Below are positions 3,990 through 40,332 of a DNA stretch of 50,896 nucleotides, piece by piece. Below the pieces are notes generated by a model. The model had not been told where the DNA came from. It searched no databases and was given only the letters and a program-made list of their open reading frames with translations. The translations under genes and the position numbers were made by a program. The number at the start of each line of letters is the position of its first letter. Position 1 is the stretch's first letter. This DNA is from a virus (Duplodnaviria; Caudoviricetes): positions 1 through 50,896 of the IMG/VR virus record IMGVR_UViG_3300012665_000657; one strand, 5' to 3'.

Positions 3990-4102
3990 TGGTGTGGCTG
4001 GTAGGTTTCGAACCTACAAAGGCTGCGAACTACGTTCATCGCCCCATCCCCATTCTATACTATGAGTATAGCGGGAGGTCTGCCTATTCCACTCACAGCC
4101 AC
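3990..4102 (-). ncRNA. Oversized tRNA-like RNA (113 nt), CAU loop, extended anticodon and variable arms
   Basis: Acceptor GTGGCTG/CAGCCAC-A-CCA; T-arm GTAGG-TTCGAAA-CCTAC; D-loop GGAATAGGCAGAC; CTATA-CTCATAG-TATAG. Confidence 0.75.
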
Positions 4103-4108
4103 AACTAT

Positions 4109-31431: not shown

Positions 31432-31505
31432 TGGAGCGGAGTGAGAGAATCGAACTCTCGACCGAAGATTGGAAATCTGCTGTTTTGCCATTAAACTAAC
31501 CCCGC
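31432..31505 (-). tRNA. tRNA-Gly(TCC)
   Basis: Cloverleaf, loop TT-TCC-AA, encoded CCA. Confidence 0.95.
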
Positions 31506-31511
31506 ACTAAC

Positions 31512-32084
31512 TTAGATCAATCCTTCCGATTGCAATGTATTTACAACATCATCACTTAAAGGGATCTCAGTTTTGATATTTGCTTCAAGCACTTCGTCGT
31601 TAAGTGATTGCTTTTGTTTCTTGAGATTTTGAATCTCGGCTTTTGCCTGCTTAATCTGCTCTTGGTCAACAACACTAGTTGACACTGTATCTTCACGACC
31701 ATACAAACTTGCACGGCTGTCATCTTTGCGATCACGAATTTTTGACAGCTTGCCTATAATTACAGGTAGATCTAATACTTCCTTGGCGCTGGCAATTTGC
31801 TCCAATTGGACAATACGTTTGTCTACGAATGCTGCCTTTGCCAAAGCCAAGTCAATGCCAGATGCATTATTGGCAGTACCTACCAAGCCTCGGATATTAT
31901 ACAAGGCTAATAGCAATCGTTGACGTCGACCATCATTTTCAAACAATTTTGAATTTGCAGCAGCTAGAGCACTTAGTGGTTCTTGAAATTCGTTGATTTC
32001 AATAGAGGTGCTGATATCAATGGTTCGGATAGCCTCATTGATAGCGTTTTGGATAGCGTTAGCTTTGCGTAAAGAGATCTTCAT
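31512..32084 (-). CDS. Coiled-coil protein, possibly DIP1984-like
   Basis: Helical; N-terminal MKISLRKA, C-terminal LNDEVLEANIKTEI; family match from memory only. Confidence 0.55.
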   Translation of the reverse strand: MKISLRKANAIQNAINEAIRTIDISTSIEINEFQEPLSALAAANSKLFENDGRRQRLLLALYNIRGLVGTANNASGIDLALAKAAFVDKRIVQLEQIASAKEVLDLPVIIGKLSKIRDRKDDSRASLYGREDTVSTSVVDQEQIKQAKAEIQNLKKQKQSLNDEVLEANIKTEIPLSDDVVNTLQSEGLI

Positions 32085-32085
32085 A

Positions 32086-32316
32086 TTACATACGTCCTTT
32101 TAAATTCTTCTTCATCATCTTTTCTAAAAACTCAGTTTTTGTGTATAGACCCTCTTCGATTTCTCTTAGGGCCGTTACAATGGCGGTAGCGTCAGTGTGC
32201 TCGAGTCGAGCCTTGGAACCATTTTTTAATTCTCTTGCTCGTTGGCTAGCAATGATTACTAGATCAAATCTACCACCAACCATCTCTGCTGCTTTTTCTG
32301 ATGTAAATCGTGCCAT
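32086..32316 (-). CDS. rpoZ: RNA polymerase omega subunit homologue
   Basis: MARFT...RFDLVIIASQRAREL...VTALREIEEG; AAGGA RBS. Confidence 0.9.
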   Translation of the reverse strand: MARFTSEKAAEMVGGRFDLVIIASQRARELKNGSKARLEHTDATAIVTALREIEEGLYTKTEFLEKMMKKNLKGRM

Positions 32317-32342
32317 TTTAATTCCTTTTATTTTTAACATGA

Positions 32343-32578
32343 CGGGTCAACGAAAGGTCAAGTAATAGACCGGACAATAGACAATGAAGAGTTGTAATCT
32401 TCGTTGACAATGTGCAAAGTACAATACACAGAGGCCTATATATTTCCGATTAACAAATGACATTCTATTAGGGTCGGATCACATAAACACGGTCCAATTT
32501 CAAGTTGGATTGTAAGTTCGGAGTAAGCATGAAGCTCACTTCGGTGTGTCTATCCTCATCTACCTTTCATCTCACCGG
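32343..32578 (-). ncRNA. Putative ~235-nt multibranch structured RNA
   Basis: GATGAAAGGT/ACCTTTCGTT and ATAGAC/GTCTAT close it; several internal hairpins; promoter directly upstream. Confidence 0.55.
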
Positions 32579-32605
32579 TTAAGTTATTTCTAACCTAACA
32601 AACTT

Positions 32606-32634
32606 ATTATACAACACTTATCTTATAAAGTCAA
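32606..32634 (-). promoter_or_regulatory. Sigma70-type promoter
   Basis: TTGACT-17-TATAAT. Confidence 0.85.
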
Positions 32635-32666
32635 CCTTTATTTGCATAATAGATTGACTTGATATT

Positions 32667-32756
32667 TGGCGGAACGAAAGAGACTCGAACTCTTAAACCG
32701 ACTTTCGCCGATCGACGGATTAGCAATCCGCTCCAATACCATTATGGGACCGTTCC
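32667..32756 (-). tRNA. tRNA-Ser(GCT)
   Basis: Class II cloverleaf, TT-GCT-AA, CCA. Confidence 0.95.
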
Positions 32757-32764
32757 AATTATTC

Positions 32765-32848
32765 TGGTGCGCAAGGAGAGACTCGAACTCTCAATCCTTT
32801 CGGCAGTGGCTTCTAAGACCACCGTGTATACCATTCCACCACTTGCGC
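32765..32848 (-). tRNA. tRNA-Leu(TAG)
   Basis: Class II, CT-TAG-AA, CCA. Confidence 0.95.
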
Positions 32849-32890
32849 AAAATTTTACTTCTAACATTGCTAATTGCTTAGTATGTAACT

Positions 32891-32919
32891 ATTATATAGT
32901 CTAATCTTTTGTGTGTCAA
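32891..32919 (-). promoter_or_regulatory. Sigma70-type promoter
   Basis: TTGACA-17-TATAAT. Confidence 0.9.
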
Positions 32920-32926
32920 CATATTT

Positions 32927-33000
32927 TGGTGCTCTAACGTAGAATCGAACTACGATTACTGTCATACCAAGACAGTGTTCTGCCATTAAACTATAAGAGC
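32927..33000 (-). tRNA. tRNA-Thr(GGT)
   Basis: CTGTC-TT-GGT-AT-GACAG, CCA. Confidence 0.9.
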
Positions 33001-33002
33001 AC

Positions 33003-33077
33003 TGGTCTCGCCTGCAGGAATCGAACCCACATTCGTAGGGTAGAAGCCTACTGTATTATCCATTATACGAAGGCGAG
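33003..33077 (-). tRNA. tRNA-Arg(TCT)
   Basis: GTAGG-CT-TCT-AC-CCTAC, CCA. Confidence 0.95.
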
Positions 33078-33084
33078 AATAGGT

Positions 33085-33233
33085 TTTCAAAGTGCCCAAC
33101 TATCTTTCTCAAGGACTCGCTGGATTGTCTCGAATAGCAGAGTTTAAACTACCTTGTACAGCTACTGGTGTGTCATGCTCAAGAATAGGGCACTAGCATA
33201 CAAGGGACTCAACACTATCGTCTATCTTCGAAA
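33085..33233 (-). ncRNA. Putative ~150-nt structured RNA between tRNAs
   Basis: TTTCGAAG/CTTTGAAA ends, AGTGCCC/GGGCACT, CCTTGTA/TACAAGG. Confidence 0.45.
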
Positions 33234-33235
33234 CT

Positions 33236-33319
33236 TGGTATGAGCGGAGGGACTTGAACCCTCAATCCCGAAGGCGGCAGATTTTAAGTCTGCTGTGTAT
33301 ACCATTCCACCACGCTCAC
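33236..33319 (-). tRNA. tRNA-Leu(TAA)
   Basis: Class II, CT-TAA-AA, CCA. Confidence 0.95.
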
Positions 33320-33416
33320 ATATAAGTAAACACACTAGCCATCGTCAAAAGGACAATGCCGCAGGCTACGCCCTAAAAGCTATGCTCGTTCTTTCACTAG
33401 AGTGTTTACATATATG
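33319..33416 (-). repeat. Conserved-stem hairpin cassette A
   Basis: CATATATGTAAACAC...GTGTTTACTTATATG enclosing a variable loop. Confidence 0.6.
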
Positions 33417-33495
33417 GTACCCCGGGCGGGAGTTGAACCCGCATTTAAATTTCTCTTTTTGAGAGAGACGACTTTGCCAATTTGTCTACCGGGGC
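33415..33495 (-). tRNA. tRNA-Leu(CAA)
   Basis: TCTCT-CT-CAA-AA-AGAGA, short variable arm, CCA. Confidence 0.9.
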
Positions 33496-33501
33496 ATTGT
33501 T

Positions 33502-33577
33502 TGGTGCAACCTCCAGGGATCGAACCTGGTTCAATGGCTCTTCAGACCACCGCTATGACCACATCAGCTAAAGTTGC
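33502..33577 (-). tRNA. tRNA-Phe(GAA)
   Basis: CT-GAA-GA loop, CCA. Confidence 0.95.
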
Positions 33578-33579
33578 AT

Positions 33580-33671
33580 TGGTACCAGCGGAGGGGATCG
33601 AACCCTCTCAAGAACGCTAATCTGGCGCTAAAAGGTTTATAAAACCTCTCTGACTACCAAGTCTCGCTGGC
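33580..33671 (-). tRNA. Non-canonical tRNA(TAT), Ile anticodon, short D-arm and long variable arm
   Basis: GCCAGCG/CGCTGGT-A-CCA; GACT-TGGT-AGTC; AGAGGT-TT-TAT-AA-ACCTTT; V-arm AGCGC/GCGTT. Confidence 0.8.
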
Positions 33672-33721
33672 AAAAGAAAAACTCTACAGCATCAACTATG
33701 TTGAACGAGTAGAGCCATGTT

Positions 33722-33795
33722 TGGGGTGAAGGGGAGAATCGAACTCTCTCTTACTGTTTCACAGACAGCCGTGCAGCCATTACACTACCGACACC
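33722..33795 (-). tRNA. tRNA-His(GTG)
   Basis: G-1:C73, CT-GTG-AA; two acceptor mismatches. Confidence 0.85.
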
Positions 33796-33957
33796 ATTAA
33801 CTTTTTTAAGAGCATCCTTACGCATCATGAAAGGACGCGGATTGTCTTGTTTGTGTACTACGAGATAGTCTACTCCGTCGATGACCTGAACGGCACGGAC
33901 ATCTTCGCATACTACCTGTTCACCGTTTCTTTCATTTACAAATGTCATTGATTTCAT
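33751..33957 (-). CDS. Small hypothetical protein whose 3' end overlaps tRNA-His
   Basis: AAAGGAG RBS, 68 aa. Confidence 0.65.
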   Translation of the reverse strand: MKSMTFVNERNGEQVVCEDVRAVQVIDGVDYLVVHKQDNPRPFMMRKDALKKVNGVGSVMAARLSVKQ

Positions 33958-33974
33958 AACTATCTCCTTTAATA

Positions 33975-34051
33975 TGGCCGGCCCTGAGAGACTCGAACTC
34001 CCAACTTCCAGTTTCGAAGACTGGCACTCTATCCATTTGAGTTAAGGACCG
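33975..34051 (-). tRNA. tRNA-Arg(TCG)
   Basis: CCAGT-CT-TCG-AA-ACTGG, CCA. Confidence 0.95.
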
Positions 34052-34513
34052 TTAATTTTTAAATGTTCGCCAATCGTCTATGTTTGGCTTTTCGTTTTCG
34101 TCGTATGTCCATCCTAGCGCCTTCATCATACGATGCTTGACTAACAGATTCGGACTGCGAAACCTTTCGGTATCGTTGAAGCCCAACATAACTCCAACTT
34201 CGCATACTGCACCGCTGCGACAAATTCCTGCAAAGCAATGAACAACAACGTTCATTCTATTTTCTAGAGCATGTTGCAGTAATCGAACAAGCTCGTTAGC
34301 TTGCTCCTGACTACAGCGCATGGCTTCATCTAATGCAAAGTCGTCCTTTTCGATGTCAAGAAACTCAAAGTTATGACGCTCTTTAAAAGTGTGCTTAGCC
34401 TCAGGCCTCCAGCTGGCCGGATCTACGATGCTAATCAACATACTGTTAGGGCCAGCATCGTGATGAAACCCAATTGGAATATCAGCCGCCGCTACATTTT
34501 CGATCCATGGCAT
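34052..34513 (-). CDS. Tyrosine/dual-specificity phosphatase-like protein
   Basis: VHCFAGICRS (CX5R); AAAGGAG RBS. Confidence 0.85.
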   Translation of the reverse strand: MPWIENVAAADIPIGFHHDAGPNSMLISIVDPASWRPEAKHTFKERHNFEFLDIEKDDFALDEAMRCSQEQANELVRLLQHALENRMNVVVHCFAGICRSGAVCEVGVMLGFNDTERFRSPNLLVKHRMMKALGWTYDENEKPNIDDWRTFKN

Positions 34514-34530
34514 TTTATTTCTCCTTTAAT

Positions 34531-34604
34531 TGGCACCCGGAGTAGGAATCGAACCTACAATAGCAGAGTCAAAGTCTGTTGTGTTACCACTACACTATCC
34601 GGGA
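34531..34604 (-). tRNA. tRNA-Gln(TTG)
   Basis: CT-TTG-AC loop, G73, CCA. Confidence 0.95.
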
Positions 34605-34614
34605 ATAAATTGAA

Positions 34615-34827
34615 TTTGTAAGTAGTTGCGTCCCTCATATCGCAACCATTTTCCCTTGTAATAAAGCCGGCAGGGTCAAGATACGTCACTCGGGATAACA
34701 GTCCAGTATGGCAACCAATCTGCGAGGATCTTCCGATCCTCTGGGAGTTGAACCCACTAACCTTCTACTGTCTTGGTAGTTCGAACTTACCTCGACAGCG
34801 TGACTCTCTCTTGCTGACACTTACAAA
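34615..34827 (-). ncRNA. Putative ~210-nt structured RNA with two T-loop-like hairpins
   Basis: TTTGTAAGT/ACTTACAAA ends; GTCAC/GTGAC; TGGG-TTCAACT-CCCA; GAGGATC-GGAA-GATCCTC. Confidence 0.6.
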
Positions 34828-34830
34828 ACT

Positions 34831-34911
34831 TGGTGCAGCCAAAGGACTCGAACCTTTGTGGCAACTAGTATTAGATGCTCTATACAGGGCACCCGCCTTC
34901 TCCATTGCTGC
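34831..34911 (-). ncRNA. Aberrant tRNA-like RNA (GTA loop, no D-stem)
   Basis: GCAGC/GCTGC-A-CCA, CAAAGG-TTCGAGT-CCTTTG, bulged anticodon stem. Confidence 0.6.
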
Positions 34912-34918
34912 GTAAACT

Positions 34919-34994
34919 TGGTGGTAATAGTTGGACTCGAACCAACGATAGGCTGCGTATGAAGCAACTGCATTAGCCACTATGCTATATTACC
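34919..34994 (-). tRNA. tRNA(CAT), elongator Met or Ile2
   Basis: GTTGC-TT-CAT-AC-GCAGC, paired 1:72, CCA. Confidence 0.9.
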
Positions 34995-35077
34995 AAACTT
35001 GTTATGGCTGTGCGAGCCCATCTGCACACTTAGGCTTTTTGTCTTCTCCTACCCGGGTAGTTACGACAGTGGCGTCA

Positions 35078-35170
35078 CCATATAGAAACACACTCAGGCG
35101 TAGTAGTTCTTTAGCCCACTAAGATACACGACTACCACTCGTGTCATTAGTTGAATGTGTTTTTATATGG
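35078..35170 (-). repeat. Conserved-stem hairpin cassette B
   Basis: CCATATAAAAACACATT...AGTGTGTTTCTATATGG. Confidence 0.7.
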
Positions 35171-35246
35171 CAAACTCATTGTAGGTTGGATTCGAACCAA
35201 CGTTGCCCCTTACCGAGGATTCCTACCACTAGAAGACTACGAGTTC
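35168..35246 (-). ncRNA. Aberrant tRNA-like RNA (long bulged acceptor, short anticodon arm)
   Basis: GAACTC-GTAG/CTAC-AAT-GAGTTT-G-CCA; D-arm TTCT-AGTGGT-AGGA; T-arm GTTGG-TTCGAAT-CCAAC. Confidence 0.65.
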
Positions 35247-35295
35247 TTGAGAGTAATTACTTCCCAATATGGTTGCTACCTGCAGATAACATTAA

Positions 35296-35374
35296 CCATA
35301 TAGAAACACACTAACAACAAATGCTATGCACTCTGGTTCTCAATCCCAGCTGTGGTTAATATGTTTTTATATGG
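35296..35374 (-). repeat. Conserved-stem hairpin cassette C
   Basis: CCATATAAAAACATATT...AGTGTGTTTCTATATGG; 17-nt 3' arm identical to cassette B. Confidence 0.7.
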
Positions 35375-35446
35375 TAGGGGCACAGAGAATCGAACTCTGA
35401 TTAATAGGTTAAAAGCCTACTACTTTAGCCGTTAAGTTATACCCCC
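35372..35446 (-). tRNA. tRNA-Lys(TTT)
   Basis: GTAGG-CT-TTT-AA-CCTAT, CCA. Confidence 0.95.
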
Positions 35447-35494
35447 GACATCTTATCACTCTTGTCACTATTCATGACAGATCTCCTTTTAAAA

Positions 35495-35887
35495 TTAAAC
35501 TTTCTCGTAACCTAGATCTACGCTTTCGCTGTAGTATCCGTTGCTTTCACCTAACCATCTCACGTCTACATAACCCTTACGAGTAGCAAACTTGTAAAAT
35601 GTCCAAGTACCCGATTCATTAAACTCTTGGTCAATGCTCTTGATCATATCAAACAGATTGTGTGTTTCTTCTGCCTTTAAAAGTACTACACCTTCTAAGT
35701 CAGATAAGTCACCTGTAATATCTTCAATACGAACATGTTCGCAACAGTCTTGCGAATGAAAAAATACATAACGCTCTGTGTCGTTTTCAAACACTAGTTC
35801 AGTACCGTCTACATTCTTTACGGAAGTAAACACTTTACCTACCATGTCTTCTATCTTAGCAGAGCTATTCCAGTCATAATAAGACAT
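35495..35887 (-). CDS. Conserved phage hypothetical protein
   Basis: HSQDCCE...TWTFYKFAT.KG.VDVRW.GESNGYYSE; AAAGGA RBS. Confidence 0.8.
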   Translation of the reverse strand: MSYYDWNSSAKIEDMVGKVFTSVKNVDGTELVFENDTERYVFFHSQDCCEHVRIEDITGDLSDLEGVVLLKAEETHNLFDMIKSIDQEFNESGTWTFYKFATRKGYVDVRWLGESNGYYSESVDLGYEKV

Positions 35888-35910
35888 AATAGTTCCTTTC
35901 TATTAATAAT

Positions 35911-35985
35911 TGGTAGCCAATGATGGGAACGATCCATCGACCCTCGCCTTATCAAGACGATGCTCTACCACTGAGCTAATTGGCT
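35911..35985 (-). tRNA. tRNA-Ile(GAT)
   Basis: TT-GAT-AA loop; atypical T-loop ATCGTTC. Confidence 0.9.
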
Positions 35986-35990
35986 GTATT

Positions 35991-36080
35991 TGGCGGAAGT
36001 GGTGAGATTCGAACTCACGGCCCCTTGCGGGACGACAGTTTTCAAGACTGCTGCCTTAAACCGGGCTCAGCCACACTTCC
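35991..36080 (-). tRNA. tRNA-Ser(TGA)
   Basis: Class II, CT-TGA-AA, G73, CCA. Confidence 0.95.
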
Positions 36081-36089
36081 AAAAAAAGA

Positions 36090-36185
36090 GCACTAGTAGA
36101 AAGAGTGAGTCGTTCCAATCTACCGACCAAGCAAACCCGACTATGTCTTGGGCTTCCTTCTTATCGCCGACCTTACGGCTAGTGC
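36090..36185 (-). ncRNA. Putative 96-nt four-way-junction RNA
   Basis: GCACTAG/CTAGTGC closing stem, three internal hairpins, followed by a U7 run. Confidence 0.45.
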
Positions 36186-36189
36186 ATAC

Positions 36190-36267
36190 TGGAGTGGCGG
36201 GTGAGATTTGAACTCACGGTTTTACGGATTTGCAATCCGTTGCAATGGACCTCTCTGCCACCGCCAC
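36190..36267 (-). tRNA. tRNA-Cys(GCA)
   Basis: TT-GCA-AA, U73, CCA. Confidence 0.95.
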
Positions 36268-36271
36268 ATTG

Positions 36272-36877
36272 TTACATTGTAGGACCGTTGCCGTTCCTAA
36301 AGCCAACACTTCCACCTTCTGCTTCGATACGCTTGATAACGTCTTCGAATAAGATAGGAGCAAAGTCAGGAGTTTGTTCTACGCAAACACAGTGATAACG
36401 AACATCAATTTCGTTGCTGTATAATGTAGCACCTGTTTTAGCATCCACACCACGAGCTTTTAACACACGATTTGTATGTAAGTGTCCGTGAATGTTAACG
36501 CCAAAACGTCCTAAACTTGCTTCGTGTAAAGGTATATGGCTTAAAATCATTCCGTTCATTACATGATAAGCACGTAACTCACGGAAGTAAGTTCTGTACT
36601 CGTCGTCACGAAAGATGTCGTGGTTGCCACGGATTAATACCTTGTCGCCGTTTAAACGGGCTAACGTGGGTAATGCCTTGCGGTTAATAACAACATCACC
36701 TAAGTGATATACTTTGTCGTTCGGACGAACACGATCGTTCCAAGCAGCAATCATGGCTTCATCCATTTCATCCGGATCAGTCCATGGTCGAATCTTTGTT
36801 ACTCCGTCTGATTCTGTGAAGCGGCAAACACCCGAGTGACCAAAGTGTGTATCGCTTACTAAAAATACACTAGGCAT
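36272..36877 (-). CDS. Calcineurin-like metallophosphoesterase
   Basis: SDTHFGH, LGD, GNHD, SH, HGHLH. Confidence 0.9.
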   Translation of the reverse strand: MPSVFLVSDTHFGHSGVCRFTESDGVTKIRPWTDPDEMDEAMIAAWNDRVRPNDKVYHLGDVVINRKALPTLARLNGDKVLIRGNHDIFRDDEYRTYFRELRAYHVMNGMILSHIPLHEASLGRFGVNIHGHLHTNRVLKARGVDAKTGATLYSNEIDVRYHCVCVEQTPDFAPILFEDVIKRIEAEGGSVGFRNGNGPTM

Positions 36878-36905
36878 CTTGCCCTCCTTTCTAAGTTAAT
36901 GTGTT

Positions 36906-36934
36906 ATTATACAATCAATTGCTCAAAATGTCAA
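36906..36934 (-). promoter_or_regulatory. Sigma70-type promoter
   Basis: TTGACA-17-TATAAT. Confidence 0.9.
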
Positions 36935-37703
36935 TCAATTTTTTATGCATTTTTCCTGCTAGTTCTATATGCGATTCGACCGGCGGATGACCGAACGCAC
37001 ATTTTTGCTCTTTTCCGTTTACAACCGGAAGTTGTAAATATTCTTCAGGTAGTACCATACTACCAATGTTAGTTTTCCAAATTGTATCAGCAAAAAGTCT
37101 ACTATGTATTAGCTCAAGTTTGTCAAGCTGATTCATATCATTGACCATAGGTTGCATTAACAAGTTTATATTTGATCTAAGACTAGCTAGTAGACTTAGG
37201 GTTTTAAAATATTGAAATACTATAAAATCATCGTTGAAAATATCTAACAGTAGTTTACTTCCTATATCGTATGGAATGTTCTTAGAAGTTAATGTTCTAA
37301 TTTTTTCTTTTGATCGAAAATCAATTATACGATTCATAGAGGTCAAACCCACTAATACCAGGTCAGTGTCTAGAATCAGTCCTTGAGTATAATCACTGTG
37401 AATTTGAAAATACTGTGCATCCAGGCCGCTGCCGTTAGTTGCTCTATTTTCAAACTCGAGATTTAATAGTTTAGCCAGTTGACCAGCCCAAGAACTACTT
37501 CTATGTAAAGGCTCGTCCCATCTTATTTTAAAGTCTTCTTTAAACTGTGTAGAACGAGCTAAGGATGCCTTACCATTTACATATGCCATCTTATGTTGAT
37601 TGCATTCTTCAAAAGTCATCCCCAAAACTATGTGATCCATAATTTCGTCTCCAGCAGTATCACTACTCCCGTATGCTAAAATTCGTTTGATATTTTTATT
37701 CAT
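36915..37703 (-). CDS. SGNH-hydrolase-like protein
   Basis: YGSSDTAG, ENRATNGSG, FGHP..SH; TAAGTA upstream. Confidence 0.65.
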   Translation of the reverse strand: MNKNIKRILAYGSSDTAGDEIMDHIVLGMTFEECNQHKMAYVNGKASLARSTQFKEDFKIRWDEPLHRSSSWAGQLAKLLNLEFENRATNGSGLDAQYFQIHSDYTQGLILDTDLVLVGLTSMNRIIDFRSKEKIRTLTSKNIPYDIGSKLLLDIFNDDFIVFQYFKTLSLLASLRSNINLLMQPMVNDMNQLDKLELIHSRLFADTIWKTNIGSMVLPEEYLQLPVVNGKEQKCAFGHPPVESHIELAGKMHKKLIDILSN

Positions 37704-37721
37704 ATCATTACTTATCAGGTC

Positions 37722-37795
37722 TGGAGCGGGATACGAGAATCGAACTCGTGACTAAACCTTGGCAAGGTTTCGTTTGACCATTAAACTAATCCCGC
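37722..37795 (-). tRNA. tRNA-Gly(GCC)
   Basis: TT-GCC-AA, U73, CCA. Confidence 0.95.
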
Positions 37796-37801
37796 GGTGG
37801 A

Positions 37802-38242
37802 TTATTTTTTTATAACTTGATATTCGTAGTTTACAGTATTTTCGTTTTCACGAAATATTTCAGCACCGTTTCTAAGATGGAACTTTCGAGCCATGTCAGT
37901 TTTAGGACTTAGTGTTACGAATCGTTTTACTGTAGGATACAGTTTTTGTATTTGCTCTACAGTTTGAAATAACAGATCTGATGCTGCGCCCGGCGCATAA
38001 CTCCAGATAGTGTAAAAAATAGCTGTAGTAGGATCGTCTGCATCTTTGCTAAGATCATCAACAGATCCCGGAACAAAGTCATGCAAGCTAACACATACCA
38101 TTGCTTGAGGTTTATCTTCAACTAAAGCACTCACAAATTTATTTTTAGACACACGGAAATCAACAGGGATTTCTGGTCTAACAGGATCATCCTTGATATA
38201 CTCAAGTAATGGGTCTGTGATGTTTGTGATAAAGTTTAGCAT
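37802..38242 (-). CDS. Hypothetical protein, GNAT-like fold
   Basis: AIFYTIWSY.PGA, FVTLSPKT..ARKFHLRNGA. Confidence 0.65.
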   Translation of the reverse strand: MLNFITNITDPLLEYIKDDPVRPEIPVDFRVSKNKFVSALVEDKPQAMVCVSLHDFVPGSVDDLSKDADDPTTAIFYTIWSYAPGAASDLLFQTVEQIQKLYPTVKRFVTLSPKTDMARKFHLRNGAEIFRENENTVNYEYQVIKK

Positions 38243-38315
38243 GGTGTCCTCAAAGATATTTTTGTTTATATGCGTACTTATCTCTGCACGTCAATATTAA
38301 TCATTTTGTAATAAT

Positions 38316-38390
38316 TGGAAGAGCCAAGGGGAGTCGAACCCCTCTTCTCAGGATGAAAACCTGATGTCCTAACCGATAGACGATGGCTCC
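38316..38390 (-). tRNA. tRNA-Glu(TTC)
   Basis: TT-TTC-AT loop, CCA. Confidence 0.95.
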
Positions 38391-38399
38391 ATAATACTA

Positions 38400-38473
38400 T
38401 GGTGGAGGTTAAGAGAATCGAACTCTTACGAAGACCTTGCAAAGGTCCCAGGCTACCATTACATCAAACCCCC
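38400..38473 (-). tRNA. tRNA-Ala(TGC)
   Basis: G3:U70, TT-TGC-AA, CCA. Confidence 0.95.
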
Positions 38474-38478
38474 ATAAT

Positions 38479-38554
38479 TGGCTCCCCAGCGTGGGATCGA
38501 ACCACGGACACCTTGATTAACAGTCAAGTGCAACTACCGCTGTGCTACTGGGGA
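38479..38554 (-). tRNA. tRNA-Asn(GTT)
   Basis: CT-GTT-AA, G73, CCA. Confidence 0.95.
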
Positions 38555-38561
38555 ATAAATC

Positions 38562-38783
38562 TTATTTTGCTGTGCTTGCGGTTCCAGTGTCATTCATCTG
38601 GTAACCGGTATTGCCTCGTGGCGCATTCCTGTCACGTGGAGCAGATTTAACAACAATACCCGATGCTAGTTCTGCTTGAATCATTGCACGTTTGAATGCA
38701 TTACGTTGTTCTGCATTAACAAACGTAGCCATGAATCGCTTTGTTTGCTTGCTAAGAACAAATGTTTTACCTGGTTTTAACAT
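38562..38783 (-). CDS. Small basic hypothetical protein
   Basis: Start MLKPGK after AAAGGA RBS; sits between two tRNAs. Confidence 0.7.
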   Translation of the reverse strand: MLKPGKTFVLSKQTKRFMATFVNAEQRNAFKRAMIQAELASGIVVKSAPRDRNAPRGNTGYQMNDTGTASTAK

Positions 38784-38804
38784 ATTATATCCTTTGTGGT
38801 TATT

Positions 38805-38880
38805 TGGTAGGACCTGCCAGGTTCGAACTGACGACATTCTGCGTGTAAGGCAGACGCTCTACCAACTGAGCTAAGGTCCT
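38805..38880 (-). tRNA. tRNA-Val(TAC)
   Basis: CT-TAC-AC, CCA. Confidence 0.95.
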
Positions 38881-38881
38881 G

Positions 38882-39076
38882 TTATTCTTCTTCAACATCT
38901 GTCACCGGAGCTCTATCAATTTTCTTTCTTGGTGCTCCCCATGCAGAGTAACTTTGGCCTTCTACTCGACCACTAACGTTTCTTCCAACTTTCTGAATAA
39001 CGCCACCCTTGGCTAAAAACTCTATAATTGCTGGATCTGTTTCTACGTGTTGCTCTACTGCTTTTTCTTTTGACAT
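38882..39076 (-). CDS. Small hypothetical protein
   Basis: AGGA RBS; IIEFLAKGGVIQK motif. Confidence 0.7.
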   Translation of the reverse strand: MSKEKAVEQHVETDPAIIEFLAKGGVIQKVGRNVSGRVEGQSYSAWGAPRKKIDRAPVTDVEEE

Positions 39077-39088
39077 ATATTTCCTAAT

Positions 39089-39165
39089 TGGTCGGAGTAC
39101 AAGGATTCGAACCTTGGACCCCCTGGTCCCAAACCAGGTGCGCTACCAGACTGCGCTACACTCCG
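39089..39165 (-). tRNA. tRNA-Pro(TGG)
   Basis: TT-TGG-GA, CCA. Confidence 0.95.
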
Positions 39166-39173
39166 AAATGAAC

Positions 39174-39249
39174 TGGTGCCGGTTGTCGGATTCGAACTGA
39201 CCACATCCGCCTTACAAGAGCGGCGCTCTACCTAATGAGCTAAACCGGC
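39174..39249 (-). tRNA. tRNA-Thr(TGT)
   Basis: CT-TGT-AA, CCA. Confidence 0.95.
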
Positions 39250-39273
39250 ATAAACTTTTACTGAACAACAATT

Positions 39274-39302
39274 AGTATAGCAGTCTATTTATAAACTGTC
39301 AA
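39274..39302 (-). promoter_or_regulatory. Sigma70-type promoter
   Basis: TTGACA-17-TATACT. Confidence 0.8.
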
Positions 39303-39324
39303 GTACTATCTTTGTAATAATGAC

Positions 39325-39400
39325 TGGCGTACCCTCAGGGCCTCGAACCCCGAACCTCTGGTTTTGGAGACCAGCACTCTGCCAATTGAGCTAAGGATAC
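39325..39400 (-). tRNA. tRNA-Trp(CCA)
   Basis: CT-CCA-AA, G73, CCA. Confidence 0.95.
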
Positions 39401-39406
39401 ATTAAA

Positions 39407-39526
39407 AGGTACTCGCTGTCCGAATCGAACGGAACTGTCTAACTCCTTATCTTCCTGAACCTTTCACGTAGTAGTCGACTTATACGCTTCTCATCGGTAT
39501 TCAGTGTAGTTAAACTTCAGCAAGTA
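39407..39526 (-). ncRNA. tRNA-like-domain RNA (acceptor + T-arm; long helix replaces D and anticodon arms)
   Basis: TACTTGCTG/CAGCGAGTA-CC; TCCG-TTCGATT-CGGA; GTTTAACT/AGTTAGAC; CTGAAT/GTTCAG. Confidence 0.6.
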
Positions 39527-39530
39527 TAAC

Positions 39531-39609
39531 TGGTTGCGGAGGCAGGATTCGCACCTGCGATCTCTAGCTTATGAGACTAGCGAGGACGACTGGACTCCTC
39601 TACTCCGCT
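39531..39609 (-). tRNA. tRNA-Met(CAT), initiator-like
   Basis: A1xA72 mismatch, CT-CAT-AA; lacks the 3 G-C anticodon pairs; T-loop TGCGAAT. Confidence 0.85.
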
Positions 39610-39615
39610 ATAACT

Positions 39616-39690
39616 TGGCGGTCCCAAGGGGTAACGATCCCCTTCTTCGACAGTGACAGTGTCGTGTGCGTCCATGAACACTTTGAGACC
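39616..39690 (-). tRNA. tRNA-Asp(GTC)
   Basis: CT-GTC-AC, G73; T-loop ATCGTTA. Confidence 0.9.
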
Positions 39691-39696
39691 TAAACT

Positions 39697-39783
39697 TGGT
39701 GGAGGAAGTAAGATTCGAACCTACTAGTCCCTAAGAAAACAGATTTACAGTCTGCCGCACCCCTCCAACTGTGCCGTTCCTCC
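39697..39783 (-). tRNA. tRNA-Tyr(GTA)
   Basis: Class II, CT-GTA-AA, CCA. Confidence 0.95.
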
Positions 39784-39793
39784 ATTAAACTAA

Positions 39794-39927
39794 TTATAAC
39801 ACACTCCCGGCCGCTTGTCAACAACCCGATGAAAACTATGTTTTCAATTTAAGGAATGTGTGTATTAAAATGTTCTCCGCTATGCGTTTAGACACTGTCA
39901 AAGAGTGAATGAAGAACACTTTAATAC
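39794..39927 (-). repeat. Conserved-stem hairpin cassettes D and E
   Basis: ACACATTCC/GGAGTGTGT and GTATTAAAGTGTTCT/AGAACATTTTAATAC. Confidence 0.55.
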
Positions 39928-40039
39928 GCTGTAATTTTTCCCTACACAAGAGTAGTTCCATCCTACAGGCCGCCCGTTTGCTCTATGTTTTAAGTGCGGA
40001 GCGAGGTCCTCGTTACCTCTTATTGCACTTCACTAAATG

Positions 40040-40073
40040 AAAAACCCCAGGGTTTTTAATCCTAGGGTTCTTT
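40040..40073 (-). terminator. Intrinsic terminator/attenuator ahead of the tRNA array
   Basis: AGAACCCTAGG-ATTAAAAAC-CCTGGGGTTTTT. Confidence 0.75.
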
Positions 40074-40095
40074 AAGTTTAAGTAGTGTCTGCTAT

Positions 40096-40263
40096 TTAAG
40101 CGTAACCACTTCCCTCCAAGAACCCCGAGCTAATATAGCCCTCTGGTGTGCGATCATATGATAAACTTCCACAATTAATCGCGAGCCAACCGGAGGCTAT
40201 AAAGCCTGCCTGTTTAGGCATCGTATTAAATGTATGTTGTCTATTAAACGATTGCATTTTCAT
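40096..40263 (-). CDS. Putative leader peptide (55 aa)
   Basis: AAGGA RBS; lies between promoter and terminator; contains anti-terminator strand GGGGTTCTT. Confidence 0.6.
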   Translation of the reverse strand: MKMQSFNRQHTFNTMPKQAGFIASGWLAINCGSLSYDRTPEGYISSGFLEGSGYA

Positions 40264-40303
40264 TTTCCTTTTTATAAACAGCAACCCTGCTGTCTATGTT
40301 TTA

Positions 40304-40332
40304 ATTATACAGTTATTTAGTCTCTGTGTCAA
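40304..40332 (-). promoter_or_regulatory. Sigma70-type promoter P1 of the tRNA array
   Basis: TTGACA-17-TATAAT. Confidence 0.9.

What the first reader, a model, noticed from the sequence alone, without database searches (positions are those of the whole stretch)
33377..39886. Recurring C-AUA-G triloop hairpin in six non-tRNA elements
Seen (minus strand): GAGC-ATA-GCTT (33377), TCAAC-ATA-GTTGA (33692), GAGTGC-ATA-GCATTT (35319), GAC-ATA-GTC (36139), TGAAAAC-ATA-GTTTTCA (39830), CGC-ATA-GCG (39878). Variant C-GTA-G loops occur in cassette A and the 3990 RNA. Stems differ while loop and closing pair are fixed, like covariation within one genome. Inference: a multi-copy binding site or decoy for one protein (nuclease/toxin, antiterminator or processing factor).
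Basis: seen in the sequence. Interest (0 to 1): 0.75.

Follow-up and report, generated by a model that had tools for sequence, protein, structure and literature searches.

The report
Shared RNA triloop across phage RNAs
Many unrelated small RNA genes lying between the tRNA genes of giant lake phages carry the same tiny three-base hairpin loop (usually C-AUA-G) on stems that change freely, so the loop is likely a shared handle for one still unknown binding partner.

Summary
All six hairpins are at the stated places: 6 in 2,483 nt of spacer against 0.18 expected, and no 5-mer reached 6 in 1,000 shuffles. In related freshwater phages the motif widens to Y(RUA)R: a pyrimidine-purine closing pair (C-G, U-A or U-G) capping A/G-U-A. 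It is kept in 124 of 128 members of 16 families chosen for carrying it, while stems covary. A census that did not choose by motif found it in 14 of 66 family groups; the next pattern reached 7. It makes 83 of 372 predicted triloops in array spacers, 8 of 389 elsewhere, and 1 of 25 in four cultured phages. One terminator-like family has it in 23 of 28 tRNA-adjacent copies and 0 of 27 others. Best reading (0.5): a handle for one protein; main rival (0.3): an RNA tertiary docking loop. No partner was identified and expression was not shown. The scan had already noted the clamp-closed cassettes and the leader attenuator on other DNA; my look-ups found no note on this loop.

The parts
31432..39783 (-). 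tRNA array, 28 tRNA genes, with structured spacers and small ORFs
33319..33416 (-). E1: clamp-closed cassette; motif hairpin at 33377-33387; second hairpin 33363-33373 (GTA loop, not conserved)
   Evidence: (5 members: C[AUA]G 4, U[GUA]A 1)
33672..33721 (-). E2: rod-shaped, terminator-like hairpin with U-tract between tRNA-His and tRNA-Ile(TAT); motif at its tip, 33692-33704
35295..35375 (-). E3: clamp-closed cassette behind tRNA-Lys; motif hairpin 35319-35333
   Evidence: L113, GUA loop; L615, AUA loop
36081..36189 (-). E4: multibranched RNA ending in a U-tract; motif hairpin 36139-36147
   Evidence: 5 members, three different stems, one GUA loop
39800..39862 (-). E5: three-way junction; motif hairpin 39830-39846; its 3' half is also a 12/12 sigma-70-type promoter match (39821-39793)
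   Evidence: (3 members; L402 has two compensated pairs)
39860..39930 (-). E6: clamp-closed three-way junction; conserved 2-pair mini-hairpin 39879-39885
   Evidence: 32 matches, CAUA invariant; pair under the closing pair G-C 19, A-U 3, U-A 3 of 25 distinct
3990..4103 (-). tRNA-like RNA upstream of the Hc1-like gene; C[GUA]G arm loop is not conserved, probably not part of the motif
33751..33957 (-). Array-encoded small SH3-like beta-barrel protein directly upstream of tRNA-His and E2; weak candidate partner only
40040..40332 (-). Promoter match (40332-40304), leader ORF (40263-40096) and attenuator-like hairpin ahead of E6/E5; context
   Evidence: earlier scan notes

Best explanation
The six hairpins are copies of a recurring RNA loop motif, Y(RUA)R, found on many unrelated small RNA genes between the tRNA genes of a group of large freshwater phages, and the loop likely serves as a sequence-specific handle for one protein. 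Shown: the loop and the polarity of its closing pair are kept while stems covary, and it is confined to the arrays. Inferred: the RNAs are cut out of the tRNA precursor; one host or phage protein reads A/G-U-A on top of a Y:R pair; binding either escorts the RNAs as small RNPs or titrates that protein. I favour a handle over a pure decoy because most RNAs carry one copy within a scaffold that has other conserved parts.
For: Family-weighted consensus C71/U29, A75/G21, U99, A100, G80/A20 over 16 families (the FA column was mis-anchored there and re-read, 11 of 12, total unchanged at 124 of 128). None of the four exceptions is a GNRA or UUCG cap. E2 closing pair C-G 17, U-A 4, U-G 2 of 23. Stems run from 2 to 9 pairs in different scaffolds, so no common geometry. 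E2 is a 45-nt rod whose tip cannot dock within itself; loop-blind retrieval gives the motif in 23 of 28 tRNA-adjacent copies and 0 of 27 others, in both internal-loop subtypes. 83 of 372 predicted triloops in array spacers versus 8 of 389 in other intergenic DNA. G-U versus A-C asymmetry 5:0 points to the transcribed strand.
Against: No binding partner found. No array gene tracks motif number; the SH3-like gene gives p=0.12 on 15 whole arrays. No such hairpin recurs in front of one phage gene, as autoregulation would give. Only 14 of 66 family groups pass the blind test, so it is not a tag on all spacer RNAs, and that test's control patterns reach 7. E2 copies are related, so 23 of 28 versus 0 of 27 is not 55 independent events, and 2 of the 23 (L518, L542) are doubtful. 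The Y:R closure equals that of a known tertiary-docking triloop. Expression and ends of these RNAs were not shown. The host is unknown.
Confidence: 0.5

Rival explanations
1. The loop is an RNA tertiary module, a variant of the Y(u/gNR)R triloop, that docks into a helix or receptor within the same RNA, on the neighbouring tRNA in the precursor, or on another RNA molecule.
For: Same Y:R closure with C:G, U:A and U:G variants as the rRNA and RNase P triloops in PMC3035441 (passages). Stem length is steady within a family, and many copies sit at junctions or beside pseudoknot-like parts. It is about as common as GNRA among conserved hairpins (10 of 20 triloops; about 7 of 25 tetraloops). Array RNAs GOLLD and ROOL use loop-mediated contacts between molecules (PMC12286853, passages).
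Against: First loop base is A in about 75%, not U or G, and the middle base is U, whereas the docking examples in that paper are UAA/GAA. E2 has no place for an internal receptor and lies before or behind different tRNAs. Rare in T4, T5, KVP40 and Gravdalen spacers (1 of 25, a small sample).
Confidence: 0.3
2. It is only a favoured cap in this phage lineage, spread by shared ancestry or shuffling of modules, with no specific partner.
For: All families come from one phage group, and modules are visibly exchanged between clamps. Real loop stabilities are not in the folding model, so special stability is untested (63 of 64 loops score alike in RNA, all 64 in DNA).
Against: U and A stay fixed while neighbouring pairs change on both sides. 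No generic caps replace it in 128 members. Relatives of E2 away from tRNAs use other loops, UUCG among them.
Confidence: 0.1
3. The hairpins are decoys that mimic a tRNA feature cut by an anti-phage nuclease, in particular the short triloop-capped variable arm of tRNA-Tyr attacked by Septu and retron PtuAB.
For: Septu and retron-Eco7 cleave the tRNA-Tyr variable loop (PMC13096335, passages). Bacterial tRNA-Tyr variable arms are mostly C-G-closed triloops on 3-pair stems. Many tRNA-Tyr genes of these phages have an unpaired variable region.
Against: 0 of 133 tRNA-Tyr matches from 132 of 161 sampled genomes have an AUA or GUA triloop; they read mostly UCA/UCU/UCC (read by eye; the true host may not be in the sample). 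The motif is not among the ten commonest variable loops of the phages' own Ser, Leu or Tyr tRNAs. In PMC11555353 rescue needed a functional tRNA (passages).
Confidence: 0.07
4. The hairpins act in DNA (single-stranded mini-hairpins or palindromic operator sites).
For: E5's hairpin is a 7-pair palindrome just upstream of a consensus -35 box. d(GNA) triloops are stable in DNA (PMC3201870, abstract start).
Against: The loop prefers A over G at position 1 and fixes T in the middle, unlike d(GNA). G-U pairs fall on the transcribed strand. Most copies are embedded in covarying RNA junctions.
Confidence: 0.03

Closest known systems
Y(u/gNR)R (lonepair-type) triloops of 23S rRNA (L70, H42-H44, H90-H92) and RNase P; Geary et al., PMC3035441 (passages read)
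   Same: Three-base loop closed by a pyrimidine-purine pair with C:G, U:A or U:G; recurs in unrelated RNAs; ends in a purine.
   Different: Here the loop is A/G-U-A with A first in about 75%; the described loops start with U or G and dock by UAA/GAA. No receptor was identified here.
Brome mosaic virus stem C apical AUA triloop (replicase promoter); bioRxiv 10.1101/2020.09.18.302638 (passages read)
   Same: An AUA triloop that acts as a protein-recognition signal in a tRNA-related RNA. Its C-G closure and 'clamped adenine' fold are recalled, not read in that paper.
   Different: One copy per plant-virus genome end, read by the viral replicase; no homology. Here many scaffolds, GUA allowed, DNA phages of bacteria.
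CsrB/RsmYZ GGA-loop sponges and L7Ae K-loops (recalled)
   Same: One short loop motif on variable stems read by one protein across many RNAs.
   Different: Different loop; CsrB-type RNAs repeat the motif many times in one RNA, here mostly once per RNA. No Rfam match.
Small stable RNAs of phage tRNA clusters (T4 rnaC/rnaD; T5 RNA I, III, IV), GOLLD and ROOL
   Same: Structured non-tRNA RNAs of unknown function between phage tRNA genes (annotations; PMC12286853 passages).
   Different: No sequence match; the motif is 1 of 25 predicted triloops in four cultured phages; the E6 model finds nothing in their loci.

Membership tests
Y(u/gNR)R A-minor triloop | Pyrimidine-purine closing pair (C:G, U:A, U:G) | tested here: met
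Y(u/gNR)R A-minor triloop | U or G at first loop position | tested here: not met
   A about 75%, G about 21%
Y(u/gNR)R A-minor triloop | U-turn fold and A-minor contact to a helix or receptor | not testable with these tools
   needs probing or structure
CsrB/RsmYZ-type sponge RNA | GGA in hairpin loops, many repeats per RNA (features recalled) | tested here: not met
   loop is RUA, mostly one per RNA; no Rfam hit
tRNA-Tyr variable-arm mimic | Short stem with C-G-closed triloop | tested here: met
   shape matches most arms
tRNA-Tyr variable-arm mimic | Loop sequence equal to the host tRNA-Tyr variable loop | tested here: inconclusive
   0 of 133 sampled matches read AUA/GUA, but the host is unknown and may not be sampled
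BMV stem C replicase promoter | Part of a viral 3' tRNA-like structure read by an RNA replicase | tested here: not met
   DNA phage tRNA array; no such Rfam family matched
Any Rfam 15 family (YrlA, GOLLD, ROOL, ribozymes) | Score at gathering threshold | tested here: not met
   only tRNA passes in the window; YrlA best 21.4 of 69 bits; none for 20 E2-type loci
DNA GNA mini-hairpin | G first, any middle base | tested here: not met
   A first preferred, middle T fixed
Protein-binding RNA tag | Loop-dependent binding of a protein | not testable with these tools
   needs pull-down or gel shift

The most novel reading that the evidence does not exclude
Y(RUA)R is a clade-wide address tag: one protein, possibly the small SH3-like protein encoded inside the array, binds it on dozens of unrelated RNAs released from tRNA precursors, making a whole class of phage small RNPs or a distributed sponge against one host RNA-binding defence factor.
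Probability: 0.25. Interest if true: 0.8.

Novelty: new variant of a known kind. Interest (0 to 1): 0.62.

Why it matters
The small stable RNAs inside phage tRNA clusters have had no assigned function for decades. A loop shared by at least 16 unrelated families gives them a common feature and a clean experiment: wild-type loop versus loop mutant versus compensated closing pair. It would reveal either a shared protein partner or a new tertiary RNA module about as frequent as GNRA in these RNAs.

Tried and rejected
Rfam: only tRNAs. Cultured relatives: none by protein; only tRNA-level DNA matches and one unannotated 5-kb river record. RNA runs: 13 rows held at most 7% of the words; four laid runs were contigs of relatives with no ends, so no statement on expression. 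Loop-blind E2 search with the first pattern gave mostly chance hits. E2-with-loop pattern in bacterial genomes: 7 hits, none a convincing E2 fold. Gene co-occurrence: top correlates reflect how loci were fetched. SH3-like protein: best VIA Z 6.2 (rmsd 1.7, 47 aligned) to generic SH3 domains, Foldseek E 0.34 to a WYL domain, no Pfam, PHROG or PDB sequence match, Atlas under 0.9; no function follows. Autoregulatory copy before a gene: not found. Folding energies do not separate loops. TATAA enrichment is partly promoter sequence, so I relied on family alignments for U-A closure. Literature searches for the motif returned only the plant-virus AUA loop and general triloop papers. In PMC10690425 six supplements held no motif string, but three files could not be searched and may hold models of these families.
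Full report
Setting. The window is a 50.9-kb phage contig with radical SAM and 2OG-Fe(II) genes, an RNA polymerase omega subunit, and 28 minus-strand tRNA genes at 31432-39783. Relatives are IMG/VR and metagenome contigs of up to about 360 kb; the sequencing runs sharing words with the array are mostly freshwater. No cultured relative was found, and the host is unknown.

Observation. In 2,483 nt of spacer there are 6 CATAG with at least 3 Watson-Crick pairs; 1,000 shuffles gave mean 0.18, max 3, and no 5-mer of any kind reached 6; the remaining 42.9 kb have 3 per strand. Each hairpin lies inside a larger fold: clamp-closed cassettes (E1, E3, E6), a rod with U-tract (E2), a branched RNA with U-tract (E4) and a junction overlapping a promoter match (E5). 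The E6 hairpin is absent from the predicted fold of the window copy. Rfam finds only tRNAs.

Homologues. E1 has 5 members, E4 5 and E5 3, all keeping the loop with changed stems; E1 includes U[GUA]A and E4 C[GUA]G. E3 has two relatives, one AUA and one GUA. For E2, 23 aligned sequences give closing pair C-G 17, U-A 4, U-G 2, with loop U and A invariant and 0 of 500 shuffles reaching the covariation score; most rows were gathered by similarity that included the loop. For E6, a model found 32 matches in 49 sources; CAUA is invariant and the pair beneath varies G-C 19, A-U 3, U-A 3 of 25 distinct rows (that alignment leans to the model, but the plain alignment of 20 also gave G-C 17, U-A 3). The motif is therefore Y(RUA)R, not strictly CAUAG.

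Other families. I clustered 1,151 spacer segments from 274 loci. Of 20 conserved triloop hairpins, 10 were Y(RUA)R; about 7 of 25 conserved tetraloops were GNRA. In 16 families picked because they carry the motif, 124 of 128 distinct members keep it (FA corrected); the exceptions are two C-A closures, one CUA and one UUA loop, never a generic tetraloop. In a test that did not pick by motif, 14 of 66 merged groups carried it against 7 for the next of 64 equally degenerate patterns. 40 of 42 non-redundant arrays have at least one C-closed copy; the window has the most, 7, so it is the extreme case.

Specificity. The motif makes 83 of 372 predicted triloops in array spacers and 8 of 389 in intergenic DNA over 800 nt from tRNAs; that control is mostly unstructured DNA and so is weak. 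In T4, T5, KVP40 and Gravdalen spacers it is 1 of 25. The sharpest test was loop-blind: searching only E2's arms gave 70 distinct sequences, 55 with a sound basal stem (15 dropped); the motif is in 23 of 28 copies with a tRNA nearby, nearly all within 8 nt, and 0 of 27 without, in both internal-loop subtypes. Two of the 23 are doubtful and the copies are related, so the contrast overstates independence. G-U pairs outnumber A-C 5:0 on the transcribed strand, and CATAG hairpins number 20 there against 6 on the reverse, which points to RNA.

The two C-GTA-G examples are not conserved, though GUA does replace AUA at homologous sites elsewhere. Most spacer families lack the motif.

Mechanism. Shown: fixed loop, fixed pair polarity, free stems, confinement to arrays. 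Inferred: release from tRNA precursors and recognition in trans. A protein handle (0.5) best explains conservation at the tip of a 45-nt rod and on stems of 2 to 9 pairs. Tertiary docking (0.3) is a serious rival: the closure matches Y(u/gNR)R triloops (PMC3035441, passages), and array RNAs GOLLD and ROOL use contacts between molecules (PMC12286853, passages), but the loop begins with A and has U in the middle. A tRNA-Tyr variable-arm decoy was suggested by Septu and retron cleavage there (PMC13096335 and PMC11555353, passages); 0 of 133 sampled bacterial tRNA-Tyr matches have this loop (one row is from G119, flagged unpublished, and the result stands without it). The array's 54-residue protein folds confidently as an SH3-like barrel (pLDDT 91), but its matches are generic and its presence does not track motif number. 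RNA libraries held only relatives' contigs, so expression is not shown.

Novelty. Searches found no description of this motif in phage RNAs; the library lacks most subscription papers. The nearest sequence precedent is the brome mosaic virus AUA triloop (bioRxiv 10.1101/2020.09.18.302638, passages). PMC10690425 (passages) lists thousands of viral candidates, and three of its supplements could not be searched, so single families may be catalogued there. PMC5737381 and PMC6009582 (passages) gave nothing on it. Earlier scan notes describe the clamp cassettes and the attenuator on other genomes; look-ups by words, sequence and place found none on this loop.

Verdict. Real, conserved and apparently undescribed as a shared motif; partner unknown. 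New variant of a known kind, interest 0.62.

Noticed in passing
window 33672-33721; L487-L599: E2 belongs to a wider family of terminator-like hairpins with a conserved AACAYGGC start and two internal-loop subtypes, also found behind protein genes; no Rfam match. In the window it lies mid-array with no promoter match before the next tRNAs, so read-through is needed.
   Followed up: partly
window 3990-4103; L009, L024, L030, L043: Family of class II tRNA-like RNAs with a Leu-type D-loop and a long, variable anticodon arm; the window copy shows a CUCAUAG 7-nt loop.
   Followed up: partly
L207:11500-11566 and 11 relatives (family FA; absent from the window): Besides the triloop, a 5-pair stem with a conserved CYCAUAG loop resembling a Met/Ile2 anticodon loop.
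   Followed up: no
window 34605-34835: Conserved 230-nt structured RNA; relatives' contigs reach very high depth in one RNA library (run X7), which does not by itself show expression.
   Followed up: no
window 39403-39528, 35168-35246, 33078-33235, 32400-32600, 39935-40040: Further conserved, uncatalogued RNAs without the motif; two are tRNA-like with T arms.
   Followed up: partly
window 40040-40332: Promoter match, short leader ORF and alternative hairpin with U-tract ahead of the array; E6 and E5 lie between it and the next promoter match.
   Followed up: no
tRNA-Tyr genes in related loci: Many have an unpaired variable region, which may evade variable-arm nucleases such as Septu or PtuAB.
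   Followed up: no
L352, L364, L422, L430, L484: Two E6 paralogues in tandem, the second overlapping a -35-like box.
   Followed up: no
L212:12968-13030, L207:13425-13513, L145, L157: Cassette families in which the triloop hairpin sits beside pseudoknot-like pairings seen by eye.
   Followed up: no
window 33751-33957: The ORF for the SH3-like protein runs into the 5' end of tRNA-His; in relatives it usually follows tRNA-Arg.
   Followed up: partly
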